A DNA stretch of 11,448 nucleotides from a virus (Duplodnaviria > Heunggongvirae > Uroviricota > Caudoviricetes): IMG/VR virus record IMGVR_UViG_2529292830_000009; one strand, written 5' to 3'. Shown piece after piece: positions 5,853 to 10,409 of the stretch (within the stretch, counting starts at the first letter, position 1; each line of letters opens with the position of its first letter). The position numbers and the translations under genes were made by a program. The notes beneath the pieces were generated by a model. The model saw only the letters and a program-made list of their open reading frames with translations, was not told the origin of the DNA and ran no database searches.

Positions 5853-6596
5853 ATGACCACACCAAATCCACTGGCAAAAACGAAAGGTGCGGGAACGACG
5901 TTCTGGATGTATACCGGCAACGGCGATGCGTTTGCGAACCCTTTGTCGGACACTGACTGGTTGCGTCTTGCGATGGTGAAGGATCTGCAACCTGGCGAAA
6001 TGACCGCTGATGCAGAAGATGACACTTATCTCGATGATGAAGATGCAGACTGGAAAACGACAACCCAGGGGCAGAAATCCGTCGGTGATACTTCGGCGAC
6101 GCTGGCCTGGCGTCCGGGGGACAGCGGGCAGAAAAAACTGGTTCAGTTGTTCGACTCCGGTGAAGTCTGCGCGTTTCGTATCAAATATCCCAACGGTACT
6201 GTTGATGTTTTCCGTGGCTGGCTGAGTTCACTGGGTAAAACCATTGCCTCAAAAGACGTGATGACCCGCACCGTGAAAATCAGCGGTGTGGGGCGTCCGT
6301 ATCTGGCAGAGGAAGGCACTGAAACCGTGGGCGTTACCGGGCTGACGGTGGCACCGGCATCTGCCAGTGTAAAAGTGGGAGCAACCACCCCGCTGACCTT
6401 TACAGTAAAACCTGACGGAGCCAGTGACAAAGCGATCAGTGTGCATTCGACAGATCCACAGACTGCCACGGTGACCCTGAACGGGCTTGTGGCCACGGTG
6501 AAAGGCGTGAAGCAGGGCAGTGTCAGCATTGTGGGCATGACTTCTGACGGCGATTTTGTGGCAGTGGCTACGGTGGCTGTCAGCGCCGCAGGTTAA
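5853..6596 (+). CDS. V: Major tail protein, lambda gpV homolog with C-terminal Ig-like domain
   Basis: MTTPNPLAKTKGAGTTFWMYTGNGDAFANPLSDTDWLRLAMVKDL.PGE.TA...DDTYLDDEDADW.TT.QGQKS.GDTS.TLAW.PG...NGTVDVFRGW.SS.GK is near-collinear with lambda V. The C-terminal ~85 aa (GLTVAPASASVKVGATTPLTFTVKPDG...) correspond to the Ig-like (Big_2-type) domain of gpV. AAGGAGG at 5841..5847 sits 5 nt before ATG 5853. Confidence 0.92.
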   Translation: MTTPNPLAKTKGAGTTFWMYTGNGDAFANPLSDTDWLRLAMVKDLQPGEMTADAEDDTYLDDEDADWKTTTQGQKSVGDTSATLAWRPGDSGQKKLVQLFDSGEVCAFRIKYPNGTVDVFRGWLSSLGKTIASKDVMTRTVKISGVGRPYLAEEGTETVGVTGLTVAPASASVKVGATTPLTFTVKPDGASDKAISVHSTDPQTATVTLNGLVATVKGVKQGSVSIVGMTSDGDFVAVATVAVSAAG

Positions 6597-6616
6597 CAGG
6601 ACGATACTCATCATTT

Positions 6617-6640
6617 GCCCCGGTTATCCGGGGCTTTTTT
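6617..6640 (+). terminator. Rho-independent terminator or attenuator downstream of the major tail gene
   Basis: Perfect 7-bp GC-rich stem GCCCCGG / CCGGGGC (6617..6623 and 6628..6634) with loop TTAT, then TTTTTT at 6635..6640, 21 nt after the V stop. Confidence 0.6.
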
Positions 6641-6656
6641 GCAGGTGGAGAACATG

Positions 6657-7043
6657 ATGTTTCTGAAACAGGGCACGTTTAATTATGAAAAACAGTCCGT
6701 GGTGCTCAGTGAGCTGTCCGGGCTGCAGAGAATTGAATATCTGGCGTTTGTTCAGCAGCGAACGGCAAAGTTTGATGCCGGGGAGGGAGAACTGCCGGAG
6801 GCTGAACGACAGATTGCTTTTCTGCGGATGGGGATGGATATCAATGCCTGGCTGGTTTCCCGCTCACTGTGGAATGCGGATCAGTCTAAGGATGTAGAGA
6901 CGCTTTGCGCATCCGTTATTACAACATGGTCGTATGATGCCCTGGGTGCGGGGGCGGAGATGGTTCTGTCGCTGAGCGGTATGGGGGCCATTGATAATGC
7001 CGGGGATGATGAGCATGAGGCGCTGACGCCGGAAAAGTCCTGA
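6657..7043 (+). CDS. G: Tail assembly chaperone, lambda gpG homolog
   Basis: MFLKQGTFNYEKQSVVLSELSGLQRIEYLAF... against lambda G MFLKTESFEHNGVTVTLSELSALQRIEHLAL...; also LSLSGM against lambda YRLSGM near the C-terminus. GGAG at 6647..6650 sits 6 nt before ATG 6657; ATG 6654 is the adjacent in-frame alternative. Stop TGA 7041..7043. Confidence 0.85.
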   Translation: MFLKQGTFNYEKQSVVLSELSGLQRIEYLAFVQQRTAKFDAGEGELPEAERQIAFLRMGMDINAWLVSRSLWNADQSKDVETLCASVITTWSYDALGAGAEMVLSLSGMGAIDNAGDDEHEALTPEKS

Positions 7044-7381
7044 CGCGGGAAATGCAGTTTGTCATGCGGCTTGCCCGGGAGTTCCGGCGGGCAGACTGGC
7101 GGCGGATGCTGTCGGAAATGTCGGCCACTGAGCTTGGTGAGTGGGGCGATTATTTCCGGATGCAGAGCTTCAGTGATGTGTGGATGGATGCGCAGTTTGC
7201 CTCGCTGAAGGCATTGATCGTGAGAATGGTGTCCGGCAGCAGTGATGCTGCGGTGGCTGATTTCAGCCTTTTACCGGAAGAGAACGGGATACCGGAGCGA
7301 ACGGACGAAGAACTGATGCATCTTGGAGAAGGTATTTCCGGAGGTGTGCGTTATGGACCAGATAGCCAACCTGGTCATTGA
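7019..7381 (+). CDS. T: gpT-like -1 frame extension, expressed as a G-T fusion by programmed frameshift (full product about 6657..7381 with a shift near 7031..7037)
   Basis: The -1 frame relative to G opens at 7019, after in-frame stops at 6992, 6995, 7007, 7010 and 7016, and runs to TGA 7379..7381. It encodes ...REFRRADWRRMLSEMSATELGEWGDYF...GEGISGGVRYGPD, matching the lambda T segment (REFHRPDWRRMLAEMS...GGVRYGPDG) as I recall it. No convincing independent RBS precedes the internal ATG at 7052. Confidence 0.75.
   Translation, partial: GADAGKVLTREMQFVMRLAREFRRADWRRMLSEMSATELGEWGDYFRMQSFSDVWMDAQFASLKALIVRMVSGSSDAAVADFSLLPEENGIPERTDEELMHLGEGISGGVRYGPDSQPGH
7031..7037 (+). promoter_or_regulatory. 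Candidate -1 ribosomal slippery site for the G-T frameshift
   Basis: G GAA AAG in the G frame, the only A-rich slippery run in the 22-nt window (7019..7040) where both frames are open. It differs by one base from the lambda heptamer G GGA AAG. The A-site shift AAG to AAA is canonical; the P-site shift GAA to GGA is not a perfect re-pairing. Confidence 0.45.
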
Positions 7382-10300
7382 TTTGGGGATTGATGCGGCA
7401 GAGTTTAAAAATGAAATTCCCCGTATCAAAAACCTTCTGAATGGTGCCGCCAGCGATGCAGAACGGTCTTCTGCCCGTATGCAGCGTTTTATGGAGCGTC
7501 AGACTCAGGCCGCCCGGCAGACAACGCAGGCGGCTTCTTCGGCTGCAACAGCCGCCTCCGTCCATGCGCAGACGGTGGAGAAGAACGCACAGGCTCATGA
7601 ACGCATGGCCCGCGAGGTGGAGAAAACCCGCCAGCGCATGGAGGCGCTGAGCCAGAAAATGCGCGATGAACAGGCGCAGGCCATGGCTCTGGCGGAGGCT
7701 CAGGATAAAGCGGCTGCTGCGTTTTATCGTCAGATTGACAGTGTGAAACAGGCCAGTGCGGGGCTGCAGGAATTACAGCGTATTCAGCAGCAGATCCGAC
7801 AGGCCAGAAACAGTGGCGGGATTGGTCAGCAGGATTATCTGGCGCTGATTTCTGAGGTTACGGCGAAAACCCGTGTTCTTACACAGGCTGAGGAAGAGGC
7901 TACCCGACAGAAAGTGGCGTTTATCCGTCAGCTTAAAGAGCAGGCAACCCGCCAGAATCTTTCTTCTTCTGAGTTGCTTCGTGCTAAGGCTGCCCAGCTG
8001 GGGGTAAGCAGTGCTGCAGAAGTGTATATCCGCAAAATGGAGCAGGCAGGAAAAGCCACGCATTCGCAGGGTCTGAAAAGTGCAGCGGCCCGCCAGGAGA
8101 TAGGCGTTCTGATAGGTGAACTGGCTCGCGGCAATTTAGGTGCGCTGAGGGGATCCGGGATAACGCTGGCTAACCGTGCCGGATGGATAGACACACTGAT
8201 GTCACCGAAAGGCATGATGCTGGGCGGGGTTATTGGCGGTATTGCCGCGGCCGTCTATGGTCTGGGTAAAGCCTGGTATGACGGTCAGAAGGAGGGGGAA
8301 GAATTTAACCGCCAGTTGTCGCTGACGGGGCATTATGCCGGAGTCACTGCCGGGCAGCTGTGGACGCTCAGTCGTGCTATTTCCGGGAATGGTATCACGC
8401 AACATGCTGCAGCCGGTGCGCTGGCTCAGGTGGTGGGGAGGGGTGCATTTCGTGGAAACGATATCGGTATGGTGGCGAGAGCTGCCGCACAGATGGAGCG
8501 ATCGGTTGGCCAGTCGGTCAGCGATACCATAAGTCAGTTTAAGCGGCTGAAGGATGATCCTGTAAATGCCGCGAAGGCTCTGGACAATGAGCTGCATTTT
8601 CTTACTGCCACTCAGCTTGAGCAGATACGCGTCCTTGGGGAACAGGGGCGGTCCAGTGATGCGGCACGGATAGCCATGTCTGCACTGGCAGAGGAAACCG
8701 GTCGGCGTACTGCGGATATTGATAATAACCTCAATGCGCTGGGCAGTACGCTGAAGTATCTGTCTGATTTATGGAGTCGTTTCTGGGATGCGGCCATGAA
8801 TATTGGTCGTGAAGACTCGCTGGATGAACAGATTTCCGCTTTACAGGAGAAAGTGTCGCGGGCGAAAAGACTCCCCTGGACGGCATCATCTTCTCAGGTT
8901 GAGTACGATCAGCAGCGTCTTAACGAGCTTCAGGAGAAAAAACGCCAGAAGGATTTGCAGGATGCAAAAGAGCAGGCAGAGCGGAATTATCAGGAGCAAC
9001 AGAAACGCCGTAATGCTGAAAATGCTGCACTGAACCGGATGAATGAAACGGAAGCAGCACGACATCAGCGTGAAATTGCGCGTATTAATGCCATGCAGTA
9101 CGCCGATCAGGCTGTCAGGGATGCGGCGATACAACGTGAAAATGAACGTTACGAGAAAGCCCTGGCATCCGGTAAGAAAAAAACACGCGAAACCCGTAAT
9201 GATGAGGCCACCCGGTTATTGCTGCAGTACAGTCAGCAACAGGCACAGGTGGAAGGACAGATTGCTGCTGCAAGACAGTCAGCAGGCATTGCCACTGACA
9301 GGATGACAGAAGCGCATAAACAGCTTCTGGCTCTGCAGCAGCGCATCAGCGATCTGGACGGGAAAAAACTGACGGCAGATGAAAAGAGTGTGCTGGCCCG
9401 TAAAGATGAACTGATTCAGGCACTGACGCTGCTGGATGTAAAACAGCAGGAGCTTCAGAAACAGACGGCACTCAACGATCTGAAGAAAAAAACAATTCAG
9501 CTGACCAGTCAACTGGCTGAAGAAGAGCGCGCTCAGCGCCAGCAACATGACCTGGATATCGCCACGGTGGGTATGGGTGATCAGCAGCGGCAGCGATATC
9601 AGGTACAACTGAGTCTTCGCCAGAAATACCAGCAACAGCTGGAGCAGTTGAGGCGGGATAGTGAGCAGAAAGGAACATATAACACGGATGACTACAGAAA
9701 GGCCGAGCAGGCGCTGACGGAGAGCCTGAACCGACAACTGAATGAGAATCGCCGTTATTGGCAACAGCTTGAAATTGCTCAGGGTGACTGGAAAAACGGA
9801 GTCCTGCGTGCACTCCAGAATGTCACTGAGAAAGCGGATAACACAGCCGGGACAGTGGAACAGTTGTTCACGTCTGCGTTCAGTAGCATGAGTGACTGGC
9901 TGGCGACATTCTGTACTACAGGCAAACTCAATTTCAAATCCTTCACCTCTTCTGTGCTGTCAGATATGTCCAGAATCATGGCTCAGATAGCTTTAATGAA
10001 AGCGGTAAAAGGTATTGCTTCCGCGCTGCCTTTTGATTTTGTAGCCAATGCTGATGGCGGTGTTTATCAGTCGGCTGATTTGAGTCGCTACAGTGGCACG
10101 GTGGTTAACCGTCCGACGTTTTTTGCTTTTGCAAAAGGCGCGGGTGTGATGGGGGAAGCTGGACCTGAAGCCATTCTGCCACTGCGTCGTGGTGCTGACG
10201 GTAAGCTGGGGGTTGTGGCGGATATTGGTGGTTCAGGTATGGCGATGTTTGCCCCGCAGTACAACATCGAGATCAATAACGATGGCACGAACGGGCAGAT

Positions 10301-10409
10301 AGGTCCGGCTGCCCTGAAGGTGGTTTATGACCTTGGGAAAAAAGCGGCAGCGGACTTTATGCAACAGCAGGCCCGTGATGGTGGTCGGTTAAGTGGAGCA
10401 TATCGGTAA
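7353..10409 (+). CDS. H: Tail tape measure protein, lambda gpH homolog
   Basis: 1018 aa. N-terminus MDQIANLVIDLGIDAAEF against lambda MAEPVGDLVVDLSLDAARF; C-terminus NNDGTNGQIGPAALKVVYDLGKKAAADFMQQQARDGGRLSG against lambda NNDGTNGQIGPAALKAVYDMARKGARDEIQTQMRDGGLFSG. Long Q/E/R/K-rich coiled-coil core and a Gly-rich hydrophobic segment (GMMLGGVIGGIAAAVYGLG). GGAGG at 7341..7345 sits 7 nt before ATG 7353; the track's 7323 start is a TTG. Confidence 0.92.
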   Translation: MDQIANLVIDLGIDAAEFKNEIPRIKNLLNGAASDAERSSARMQRFMERQTQAARQTTQAASSAATAASVHAQTVEKNAQAHERMAREVEKTRQRMEALSQKMRDEQAQAMALAEAQDKAAAAFYRQIDSVKQASAGLQELQRIQQQIRQARNSGGIGQQDYLALISEVTAKTRVLTQAEEEATRQKVAFIRQLKEQATRQNLSSSELLRAKAAQLGVSSAAEVYIRKMEQAGKATHSQGLKSAAARQEIGVLIGELARGNLGALRGSGITLANRAGWIDTLMSPKGMMLGGVIGGIAAAVYGLGKAWYDGQKEGEEFNRQLSLTGHYAGVTAGQLWTLSRAISGNGITQHAAAGALAQVVGRGAFRGNDIGMVARAAAQMERSVGQSVSDTISQFKRLKDDPVNAAKALDNELHFLTATQLEQIRVLGEQGRSSDAARIAMSALAEETGRRTADIDNNLNALGSTLKYLSDLWSRFWDAAMNIGREDSLDEQISALQEKVSRAKRLPWTASSSQVEYDQQRLNELQEKKRQKDLQDAKEQAERNYQEQQKRRNAENAALNRMNETEAARHQREIARINAMQYADQAVRDAAIQRENERYEKALASGKKKTRETRNDEATRLLLQYSQQQAQVEGQIAAARQSAGIATDRMTEAHKQLLALQQRISDLDGKKLTADEKSVLARKDELIQALTLLDVKQQELQKQTALNDLKKKTIQLTSQLAEEERAQRQQHDLDIATVGMGDQQRQRYQVQLSLRQKYQQQLEQLRRDSEQKGTYNTDDYRKAEQALTESLNRQLNENRRYWQQLEIAQGDWKNGVLRALQNVTEKADNTAGTVEQLFTSAFSSMSDWLATFCTTGKLNFKSFTSSVLSDMSRIMAQIALMKAVKGIASALPFDFVANADGGVYQSADLSRYSGTVVNRPTFFAFAKGAGVMGEAGPEAILPLRRGADGKLGVVADIGGSGMAMFAPQYNIEINNDGTNGQIGPAALKVVYDLGKKAAADFMQQQARDGGRLSGAYR

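What the first reader, a model, noticed from the sequence alone, without database searches (positions are those of the whole stretch)
7019..7052. G-T programmed frameshift conserved, but with a non-canonical slippery heptamer
The gpT-like frame is only reachable by a -1 shift within 7019..7040, since upstream stops close that frame and the G frame stops at 7041. The only slippery sequence in this window is G GAA AAG (7031..7037), one base different from lambda's G GGA AAG. The A-site tRNA-Lys shift from AAG to AAA is retained, but the P-site codon is GAA rather than GGA, so re-pairing after slippage is imperfect. This may tune the G to G-T ratio differently from lambda, or the shift may rely on single-tRNA slippage at A AAG.
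Basis: partly seen in the sequence, partly recalled or inferred. Interest (0 to 1): 0.4.

Follow-up and report, generated by a model that had tools for sequence, protein, structure and literature searches.

The report
Tail-chaperone G-T frameshift site, common variant
This is the usual phage "G-T" tail-chaperone frameshift site; its slippery sequence G GAA AAG differs from lambda's textbook G GGA AAG by one base, but it is the commonest version in this gene family and is already annotated as the frameshift site in phage N15, so the finding is real but ordinary.

Summary
The window is a mEp460/cdtI-like E. coli lambdoid phage. G runs 6654/6657..7043 (Pfam PF06894). The T frame (PF06223) is the -1 frame, open only from 7019. 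The 22-nt overlap holds a single shift-prone motif in the right phase: G GAA AAG at 7031..7037.

It is not a degenerate copy. In 240 related G/T loci, 217 carry G GAA AAG at the homologous position, 19 carry G GGA AAG, 2 A AAA AAG, 1 G GGA AAA and 1 G GCA AAG. It occurs in 26 of 31 clusters at 80% identity, on both deep branches of the family tree. Lambda's heptamer is the minority, derived form.

T-frame homology begins at the first codon after the heptamer. The ATG at 7052 is unique to this clade.

Heptamer base 1 is a synonymous third-codon position, yet it is G in all 30 clusters whose base 2 is G. This favours two-tRNA slippage: tRNA-Glu re-pairs on GGA through a central G.U pair, and tRNA-Lys moves from AAG to AAA.

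No conserved stimulatory RNA element was found for this clade.

The N15 GenBank record already labels GGAAAAG as the "slippery sequence for -1 translational frameshift". Verdict: already known, low interest.

The parts
5853..6596 (+). Major tail protein gene (lambda V homologue), immediately upstream of G
   Evidence: Coordinates mapped from the mEp460 annotation (mEp460_010). The G/T stretch 6600-7400 is 99.5-99.8% identical to mEp460-type phages.
6617..6640 (+). Terminator-like hairpin plus T-run between V and G
   Evidence: 7 G-C pairs followed by TTTTTT. The mEp460 record annotates a rho-independent terminator here.
6654..7043 (+). Gene G, tail assembly chaperone. Tandem ATGs at 6654 and 6657; 129 or 128 aa; stop TGA at 7041..7043.
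   Evidence: Pfam PF06894 Phage_TAC_2, E = 1.8e-39. Translation. Relatives begin MFLK. PGAP starts the gene at 6657.
7017..7020 (+). GAGG, a possible weak internal Shine-Dalgarno-like element 10 nt 5' of the heptamer. It is not conserved family-wide.
   Evidence: GAGG occurs at the same offset in 6 of 31 clusters. Any core SD tetramer occurs in 8 of 31, against a 13.5% background.
7016..7018 (+). TGA that closes the -1 (T) frame upstream. The T frame is open from 7019.
7031..7037 (+). Slippery heptamer G GAA AAG. P-site codon GAA (tRNA-Glu) moves to GGA; A-site codon AAG (tRNA-Lys) moves to AAA.
   Evidence: It is the only in-phase motif in the overlap. The identical heptamer sits at the homologous site in 217 of 240 loci. 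It is annotated as the slippery sequence in N15. It has 1.45-2.0 bits per position amid saturated synonymous sites.
7037..7381 (+). T-frame part of the G-T fusion (-1 frame). The first codon decoded after the shift is GTC at 7037..7039, and the stop is at 7379..7381. Predicted fusion = join(6654..7037, 7037..7381), 242 aa.
   Evidence: Pfam PF06223 Phage_tail_T, E = 5.1e-15. The alignment with 30 other clusters is gapless from the first post-slip codon. The 242-aa fusion matches Tritos and mEp460 at 100% in two pieces.
7052..7054 (+). ATG used by database annotation as the start of a separate T gene. It is probably not the functional entry into T.
   Evidence: It is annotated as the T start in mEp460 and RefSeq. 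In other clusters this position is L, R, H or V, and their first T-frame ATG falls at codon 9, 15, 23 or 51, mostly inside or just before the conserved LAREFxRPDWR motif. The only SD-like run (GGG at 7047..7049) is 2 nt from the ATG.
7353..10409 (+). Tape measure gene (lambda H homologue), immediately downstream and overlapping the end of T
   Evidence: Coordinates mapped from the mEp460 annotation. ORF list.

Best explanation
Positions 7031..7037 are the recoding site of a lambda-type tail assembly chaperone gene pair. Most ribosomes translating G read CCG GAA AAG TCC and stop at TGA 7041, making G. A small fraction slip back one base while tRNA-Glu and tRNA-Lys occupy GAA and AAG. They then continue in the -1 frame from GTC 7037 to 7381 and make a 242-aa G-T fusion.

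The inferred roles are as in lambda. G and the G part of G-T coat the tape measure protein. The T part recruits the major tail protein. The fixed low slip rate sets the G:G-T ratio needed for tail assembly.

The slip is most likely a two-tRNA (tandem) event. tRNA-Lys (anticodon mnm5s2UUU) moves from AAG to its better-matched AAA. tRNA-Glu (anticodon mnm5s2UUC) re-pairs on GGA with G:C, a central G.U, and A:U.

Shown here: gene identities, frame geometry, the uniqueness of the motif, and its family-wide conservation including base 1. Inferred: that the fusion is made, its frequency, and the pairing details.
For: Gene identities and order V-G-T-H.

Frame geometry and the single in-phase motif.

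The same heptamer sits at the homologous position in Gifsy-2, phi80, N15-like HK225, mEp213, Providencia, Proteus, Klebsiella, Kosakonia, Kluyvera and other prophages that are only 30-60% identical in protein.

The heptamer is an island of conservation. Positions 4-6 are invariant. Position 7 is G in 30 of 31 clusters, although AAA outnumbers AAG 2:1 in the same genes. Position 1 is G in all 30 clusters where position 2 is G, and A in the one A AAA AAG cluster. The codon that contains position 1 varies (CCG, GCG, CTG, GTG, ACG, TTG), and the other upstream third positions carry only 0.04-0.67 bits.

T-frame protein homology starts at the first codon after the heptamer, while the number of zero-frame codons after it varies (0, 1 or 5).

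On the tree, G GAA AAG and G GGA AAG (or G GGA AAA) have replaced each other in at least three places, so they behave as functional equivalents.

N15's record labels GGAAAAG as the 'slippery sequence for -1 translational frameshift', and Gifsy-2's T is annotated as part of a frameshift hybrid.

The same sequence is carried by viable phages (mEp460, cdtI, Tritos, HannyBb) and by 1846 of 5426 complete E. coli genomes.

Literature: A_AAG is the most shift-prone tetramer in E. coli (PMC4066793). Lambda needs only about 4% frameshifting, a G:GT ratio of about 30:1 (PMC3296357; PMC5009743). G_GA-type P-site parts are known in other -1 sites (PMC5009743).
Against: No experiment on this phage, or on any G GAA AAG phage, was found in the papers I could read.

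In a reconstituted E. coli system, AUG GAA AAG gave mainly zero-frame product and was used as the 'only one tRNA can slip' control (PMC6924986).

A_AAG alone was barely above background without a stimulator in reporter assays (PMC4066793).

I found no significant or conserved downstream structure for the window's clade (z = -1.09). The only upstream candidate is a weak, non-conserved GAGG.

One N15-like contig has G GCA AAG, which cannot re-pair well in the P site. This is a hint that A AAG alone may suffice.
Confidence: 0.85

Rival explanations
1. The same -1 frameshift occurs, but by single-tRNA slippage. Only tRNA-Lys re-pairs (A AAG to AAA). The P-site tRNA-Glu contributes nothing specific, as in the NNA AAG hexanucleotide sites of B. 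subtilis cdd and IS1222.
For: [quoted passage not shown] A_AAG tetramers are used by IS elements (PMC4066793). CGA AAG sites are documented (PMC5009743). One natural variant has G GCA AAG.
Against: Heptamer base 1 is not decoded after the shift and is a synonymous position in G. Yet it always matches base 2 (30 G-G, 1 A-A) while the encoded residue varies among P, A, L, V, T, M and S. The P-site codon is almost always GAA or GGA, not a random NNA.
Confidence: 0.25
2. T is made as a separate 109-aa protein from ATG 7052, as GenBank and RefSeq annotate it. This would be by independent initiation or by termination-reinitiation after the G stop 8 nt upstream. No fusion would be needed.
For: The ATG exists in frame, 8 nt after TGA 7041..7043. 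It is annotated as the T start in mEp460 and by PGAP.
Against: The ATG is unique to this cluster. Even Gifsy-2 has Leu at that position. Other clusters have their first T-frame ATG at codon 9, 15, 23 or 51, mostly inside or just before the conserved core. T-frame conservation extends upstream of the ATG to the heptamer. There is no properly spaced Shine-Dalgarno sequence. Published reviews describe the lambda T domain only as part of gpGT, where the G part tethers it to the tape measure protein (PMC5009743).
Confidence: 0.07
3. The heptamer is a decayed lambda-type site in a defective prophage, and no functional fusion is made.
For: It differs from the canonical X XXY YYZ rule by one base. Many prophages are defective.
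Against: It is the majority state of the family, on both deep branches. It is perfectly conserved in about 90 close relatives whose neighbouring codons vary: GCG/GTG two codons upstream and TCC/TCA downstream. It is present in plaque-forming phages.
Confidence: 0.03

Closest known systems
Phage lambda G / G-T -1 programmed frameshift (G GGA AAG; Levin, Hendrix and Casjens 1993, cited in PMC5009743)
   Same: Homologous G (PF06894) and T (PF06223) genes lie between the major tail and tape measure genes. T is in the -1 frame with a short overlap. The slip site is near the end of G at the same aligned position. The A-site shift AAG to AAA is the same.
   Different: The P-site codon is GAA (tRNA-Glu) rather than GGA (tRNA-Gly). 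After the slip, the G.U pair falls at the middle rather than the third codon position. Here both slipping tRNAs carry mnm5s2U34. G stops 1 codon after the heptamer instead of 5. T is shorter (114 against about 144 residues). The proteins are about 35% identical.
Phage N15 genes 14/15 (and N15-like HK225, phi80, mEp213, Gifsy-2)
   Same: They carry the identical heptamer G GAA AAG at the homologous position. It is explicitly annotated in NC_001901 as the 'slippery sequence for -1 translational frameshift'. Gifsy-2's T is annotated as part of a frameshift hybrid.
   Different: The proteins are only 34-59% identical. The N15/phi80 group has 5 codons (a few members 1) after the heptamer. It also has a candidate 8-10 bp stem starting 5 nt downstream, which the window's clade lacks.
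Hexanucleotide or tetranucleotide A_AAG -1 sites (B. subtilis cdd CGA AAG, IS1222, IS3-family A_AAG)
   Same: They rely on E. coli-type tRNA-Lys moving from AAG to AAA. The P-site codon cannot re-pair perfectly (PMC5009743; PMC4066793).
   Different: Here the base 5' of the P-site codon is conserved so that two of three P-site pairs are Watson-Crick and the third is G.U. The IS sites usually have strong 3' stimulators, and none is evident here.
G_GAU_UUY-type heptamers of insect-specific flaviviruses, umbraviruses, dianthoviruses and mesoniviruses
   Same: The X_XX part is G_GA, with the same second-position irregularity in the P site. They are listed as intermediates between hexa- and heptanucleotide sites (PMC5009743).
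   Different: These are eukaryotic ribosomes, with a different A-site codon, strong RNA stimulators and unrelated genes.

Membership tests
Lambda-type tail assembly chaperone pair expressed by -1 programmed frameshift (G / G-T) | Two ORFs located between the major tail protein gene and the tape measure gene | tested here: met
   The order V, G, T, H comes from the mEp460 annotation of near-identical sequence (99.5-99.8% over the G/T stretch) and from the ORF list.
Lambda-type tail assembly chaperone pair expressed by -1 programmed frameshift (G / G-T) | The upstream ORF is a gpG homologue and the downstream ORF is a gpT homologue | tested here: met
   PF06894, E = 1.8e-39, and PF06223, E = 5.1e-15. 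tblastn of the fusion hits lambda G and T.
Lambda-type tail assembly chaperone pair expressed by -1 programmed frameshift (G / G-T) | The downstream ORF is in the -1 frame and overlaps the end of the upstream ORF | tested here: met
   The -1 frame is open over 7019..7381 and the G stop is at 7041..7043, giving a 22-nt overlap.
Lambda-type tail assembly chaperone pair expressed by -1 programmed frameshift (G / G-T) | A slippery sequence of the strict form X XXY YYZ lies within the overlap | tested here: not met
   G GAA AAG has XXY = GAA, so XXX is not three identical bases. It is a near-canonical variant: G.U at the second P-site position. It is shared by most family members and annotated as the slip site in N15. 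The strict rule is therefore not a true requirement of this family.
Lambda-type tail assembly chaperone pair expressed by -1 programmed frameshift (G / G-T) | The downstream ORF has no conserved start of its own, and its homology begins at the slip site | tested here: met
   The T alignment is gapless from the first post-slip codon. ATG 7052 is unique to this cluster. The first ATG elsewhere is at codon 9 to 51.
Lambda-type tail assembly chaperone pair expressed by -1 programmed frameshift (G / G-T) | A fusion protein is made at a few per cent of G and is required for tail assembly | not testable with these tools
   This needs a reporter assay, western blot or mass spectrometry, and genetics.
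Single-tRNA A_AAG (hexanucleotide) -1 frameshift sites | There is no selective constraint on P-site re-pairing, so the base 5' of the P-site codon is free | tested here: not met
   Base 1 of the heptamer matches base 2 in 31 of 31 clusters, although it is a synonymous site in a variable codon.

The most novel reading that the evidence does not exclude
G GAA AAG, which biochemists have used as a 'poorly slippery, one-tRNA' control, would be the selected and ancestral slip site of the lambda-type G/T family. In it, P-site tRNA-Glu would really re-pair on GGA through a central G.U pair. Both slipping tRNAs (Glu and Lys) carry mnm5s2U34. The G:G-T ratio of these very common E. coli and Salmonella prophages would therefore depend on the host MnmA/Tus thiolation pathway through both tRNAs rather than one, as in lambda. 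That would make it a sharper host-physiology sensor or vulnerability.
Probability: 0.35. Interest if true: 0.35.

Novelty: already known. Interest (0 to 1): 0.15.

Why it matters
For genome annotation, GenBank and RefSeq call T in this very common prophage module as an independent gene from a clade-specific ATG. The module is in about a third of complete E. coli genomes. The likely real product, a 242-aa G-T fusion, is therefore missing from protein databases.

For frameshift biology, the comparative data give a natural example in which a second-position G.U pair in the P site is tolerated and apparently selected. They also show that lambda's textbook heptamer is the exception in its own family. 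Neither point opens a new question, because the site type has been annotated in N15's GenBank record.

Tried and rejected
- **Chance occurrence.** The 7-mer is not enriched in the window, so the argument rests on phase and conservation.
- **Other shift sites.** There is no other N NNY YYZ motif in the overlap. The +1 frame is open for only 34 codons, 7027..7131; the T homology lies in the -1 frame.
- **Transcriptional slippage.** I rejected this from general knowledge: a run of four A is far shorter than known RNA polymerase slippage tracts. It was not tested.
- **Downstream stimulatory RNA in the window.**
  - The 7038..7127 fold has z = -1.09.
  - RNAalifold on 31 clusters, and on the 9-cluster window clade, finds nothing.
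  - The stem seen in the N15/phi80/lambda clade forms only 4 of 10 pairs in the window.
- **Known RNA families.** Rfam gave no hit anywhere in the window.
- **Upstream Shine-Dalgarno stimulator.** Only a GAGG 10 nt upstream, which is not conserved across the family.
- **Literature.**
  - Open-access text searches for GGAAAAG or 'G GAA AAG' together with frameshift or phage terms returned only Peng et al. 2019.
  - Xu/Hendrix/Duda 2004 and 2013 and Licznar et al. 2003 are not held. What they say about this heptamer could not be checked.
- **Thermodynamic model.** Bock et al. 2019 does not cover second-position changes.

Full report
**What the window is.** The stretch 6600..7400 is 97.9-99.8% identical to 17 records of E. 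coli lambdoid phages, including mEp460, cdtI, Tritos, HannyBb and phi458. In the mEp460 record the local gene order is major tail protein, 'minor tail protein' (G), 'tail assembly protein' (T), then tape measure protein. In the window, G runs from the tandem ATGs at 6654/6657 to TGA at 7041..7043. It matches Pfam PF06894, the lambda tail assembly chaperone G family, at E = 1.8e-39. The -1 frame from 7019 to 7381 matches PF06223, minor tail protein T, at E = 5.1e-15.

**Check of the observation.** The zero frame reads GAG GCG CTG ACG CCG GAA AAG TCC TGA.
- The -1 frame has TGA at 7016..7018 and is open from 7019. The overlap in which a -1 shift can join G to T is therefore 7019..7040, 22 nt.
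- A scan of every zero-frame position in the overlap finds one motif with a YYYZ core: G GAA AAG at 7031..7037.
- Lambda's own site, read from NC_001416, is G GGA AAG followed by five codons and TGA.
- The heptamer string itself is not rare in the window: 4 copies against 1.97 expected. The case has to rest on phase and conservation.

**Is it a mutated lambda site or a conserved variant?**
- I collected homologous G/T junctions from several sources: annotated phages, one genome per species of GTDB and IMG/VR viral contigs.
- For each locus I located the G stop, the -1 frame and the in-phase motif with a script.
- Of 240 loci with complete G and T, 217 have G GAA AAG, 19 G GGA AAG, 2 A AAA AAG, 1 G GGA AAA and 1 G GCA AAG.
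- After clustering the predicted G-T fusions at 80% identity, 26 of 31 clusters have G GAA AAG.
- These clusters include Gifsy-2, phi80, mEp213 and N15-like HK225, plus prophages of Proteus, Providencia, Xenorhabdus, Klebsiella, Enterobacter, Kosakonia, Phytobacter, Buttiauxella, Kluyvera, Trabulsiella, Atlantibacter, Erwinia and Pluralibacter. Their proteins are only about 30-60% identical to the window's.
- On a neighbour-joining tree of the fusions, G GAA AAG lies on both deep branches. The canonical heptamers appear in three separate derived places: the lambda/Stx clade, a Symbiopectobacterium/Serratia cluster, and Providencia rustigianii.
- Lambda is thus the exception.

**Evidence that the site is used.**
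- Anchored on the heptamer, the -1 frame peptides of all 31 clusters align without gaps from the very first codon after it: V/A-L/F-x-x-E-L/R-x-F-x-x-x-L-A-R-E-F-x-R-P-D-W-R.
- The zero-frame tail after the heptamer is 0, 1 or 5 codons long.
- Upstream of the heptamer, zero-frame third codon positions are essentially saturated (0.04-0.67 bits). The seven heptamer positions carry 1.45-2.0 bits.
- Position 7 is G in 30 of 31 clusters, although AAA outnumbers AAG 137 to 68 in the same genes.
- The ATG at 7052, which the databases use as the T start, is specific to the window's cluster. Its closest outgroup, Gifsy-2, has Leu there. In other clusters the first T-frame ATG lies at codon 9, 15, 23 or 51, mostly inside or just before the conserved motif.
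- The only G-rich run before ATG 7052 ends 2 nt from it.
- Independent initiation of T is therefore not a conserved property of the family. Some reinitiation 8 nt after the G stop cannot be excluded for this clade.

**Mechanism.**
- The A-site half, A AAG, is the classical E. coli shift-prone tetramer (PMC4066793).
- The question is what the P-site tRNA does.
- Base 1 of the heptamer is the third base of the preceding zero-frame codon, and it is not decoded after the slip.
- That codon encodes P, A, L, V or T (and M or S in the clusters with other heptamers), through CCG, GCG, CTG, GTG, ACG or TTG. Yet base 1 is G in all 30 clusters whose base 2 is G, and A in the single A AAA AAG cluster.
- In the same genes only 26-53% of these amino acids' codons end in G. 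Counting even one event per distinct codon among the cluster representatives gives p of about 0.02.
- This is what tandem slippage predicts: tRNA-Glu (anticodon mnm5s2U-U-C) re-pairs on G-G-A with G:C, G.U and A:U.
- Lambda's tRNA-Gly on GGG also ends with one G.U pair, at the third position. This pairing argument is my inference.
- PRFect's authors proposed the same G.U logic for tRNA-Glu on GGA in mycobacteriophage sites, and their 'twofour' motif class would appear to cover GGAAAA (PMC10885494).
- The Atkins et al. review lists G_GA as a recognised intermediate P-site type (PMC5009743).
- Against a strong P-site contribution there are two points. Peng et al. found mainly zero-frame product on AUG GAA AAG in vitro and treated it as a one-tRNA site (PMC6924986). 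One natural N15-like contig has G GCA AAG.
- Lambda needs only about 4% shifting, a G:GT ratio of about 30:1 (PMC3296357; PMC5009743). A weak site is therefore compatible with function.

**Stimulatory elements.**
- For the window I found none that is convincing.
- The 90 nt after the heptamer fold no better than shuffles (z = -1.09).
- RNAalifold finds no consensus structure, and Rfam has no match.
- A GAGG at 7017..7020 sits 10 nt before the heptamer, within the 6-17 nt range in which SD-like stimulators were searched for in PMC4066793. It occurs at that offset in only 6 of 31 clusters.

**A clade-specific downstream stem seen in passing.**
- In the other deep branch (N15, phi80, lambda and relatives), an 8-10 bp stem starting 5 nt after the heptamer pairs GCCRGYGAGC with GCTYGCYGGC about 55 nt downstream.
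- It is 85.5% paired against 29-45% in slid controls.
- One pair switches cleanly between A-U (11 clusters) and G-C (10 clusters), through a Ser/Gly change matched by a synonymous Ala change.
- The structure was derived from one member's minimum-free-energy fold, and the number of independent events is small. It is a lead, not a finding.
- It does not form in the window (4 of 10 pairs).

**Comparison with what is known, and novelty.**
- The gene pair is a member of the lambda G/G-T system by every sequence-testable criterion except the strict X XXY YYZ rule, which most of the family does not obey either.
- The variant heptamer is not new. The N15 record NC_001901 carries a misc_feature 'slippery sequence for -1 translational frameshift' at 10027..10033, and I read those bases as GGAAAAG.
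- Gifsy-2's T is annotated as part of a frameshift hybrid.
- From memory, Xu, Hendrix and Duda (Mol Cell 2004) catalogued such sites across tailed phages. I could not open that paper.
- What the present work adds is quantitative. G GAA AAG is the dominant and probably ancestral form. Base 1 is under selection. Both slipping tRNAs are mnm5s2U34 species whose thiolation is known to tune lambda's G:GT ratio (PMC3296357).
- It also flags an annotation gap. This module is in 1846 of 5426 complete E. coli genomes, and T is annotated as a stand-alone gene.

**Verdict.** The feature is an ordinary, already described kind of recoding site, and interest is low.

Noticed in passing
L007:696-798, L053:1896-1998 and 20 other loci (alignment A3, columns 16-25 with 81-90); not in the window: In the N15/phi80/lambda branch of the family, an 8-10 bp long-range stem begins 5 nt after the slippery heptamer. 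It is 85.5% paired against 29-45% for slid controls. One pair covaries cleanly (A-U in 11 clusters, G-C in 10), through a Ser/Gly change matched by a synonymous Ala change. It may be a frameshift stimulator in those phages, including lambda.
   Followed up: partly
window 6617-6640: A strong terminator-like hairpin (7 G-C pairs plus a T-run) lies between the major tail gene and G. It is annotated as rho-independent in mEp460. It would lower G/T/H transcription relative to the major tail protein.
   Followed up: no
window 7052-7381; L169:599-928: GenBank and RefSeq (PGAP) annotate T as an independent CDS from a clade-specific ATG, with no ribosomal-slippage join. This G/T module occurs in 1846 of 5426 complete E. 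coli genomes, so the predicted 242-aa G-T fusion is systematically missing from protein sets.
   Followed up: partly
L061-L073, L086: G/T loci identical to lambda appear on contigs, several of them short or low-coverage, in genome assemblies of unrelated organisms (Pseudomonas, Kitasatospora, Shewanella, Paenibacillus, Oceanobacillus, Leeuwenhoekiella and others). This is most likely lambda DNA contamination of sequencing libraries.
   Followed up: no
L232 (IMGVR_UViG_3300048929_000058), heptamer near 1600: A single N15-like viral contig has G GCA AAG (Glu to Ala) at the slip site. It is the only one of 144 distinct G-T fusions whose P-site codon is neither GAA, GGA nor AAA. It could be a sequencing variant or evidence that A AAG alone suffices.
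   Followed up: partly
L185, L186, L187 (about 1201-1650): Three related Proteus-type viral contigs have a 1-nt indel that splits G into two frames after about 72 codons. This is either a pseudogenised chaperone or a shared assembly error.
   Followed up: no
L022, L005, L031, L035 and relatives (Proteus and Providencia prophages): In these clusters the G stop codon TAG follows the heptamer directly (G GAA AAG TAG, and G GGA AAA TAG in P. rustigianii). Slow termination could therefore favour a post-translocation slip, a context different from the window's (1 codon) and lambda's (5 codons).
   Followed up: no
window 6654-6659: G begins with tandem ATG ATG. All relatives start MFLK, and PGAP uses the second ATG (6657), which also has the better spacing from the GGAG at 6647-6650.
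   Followed up: no
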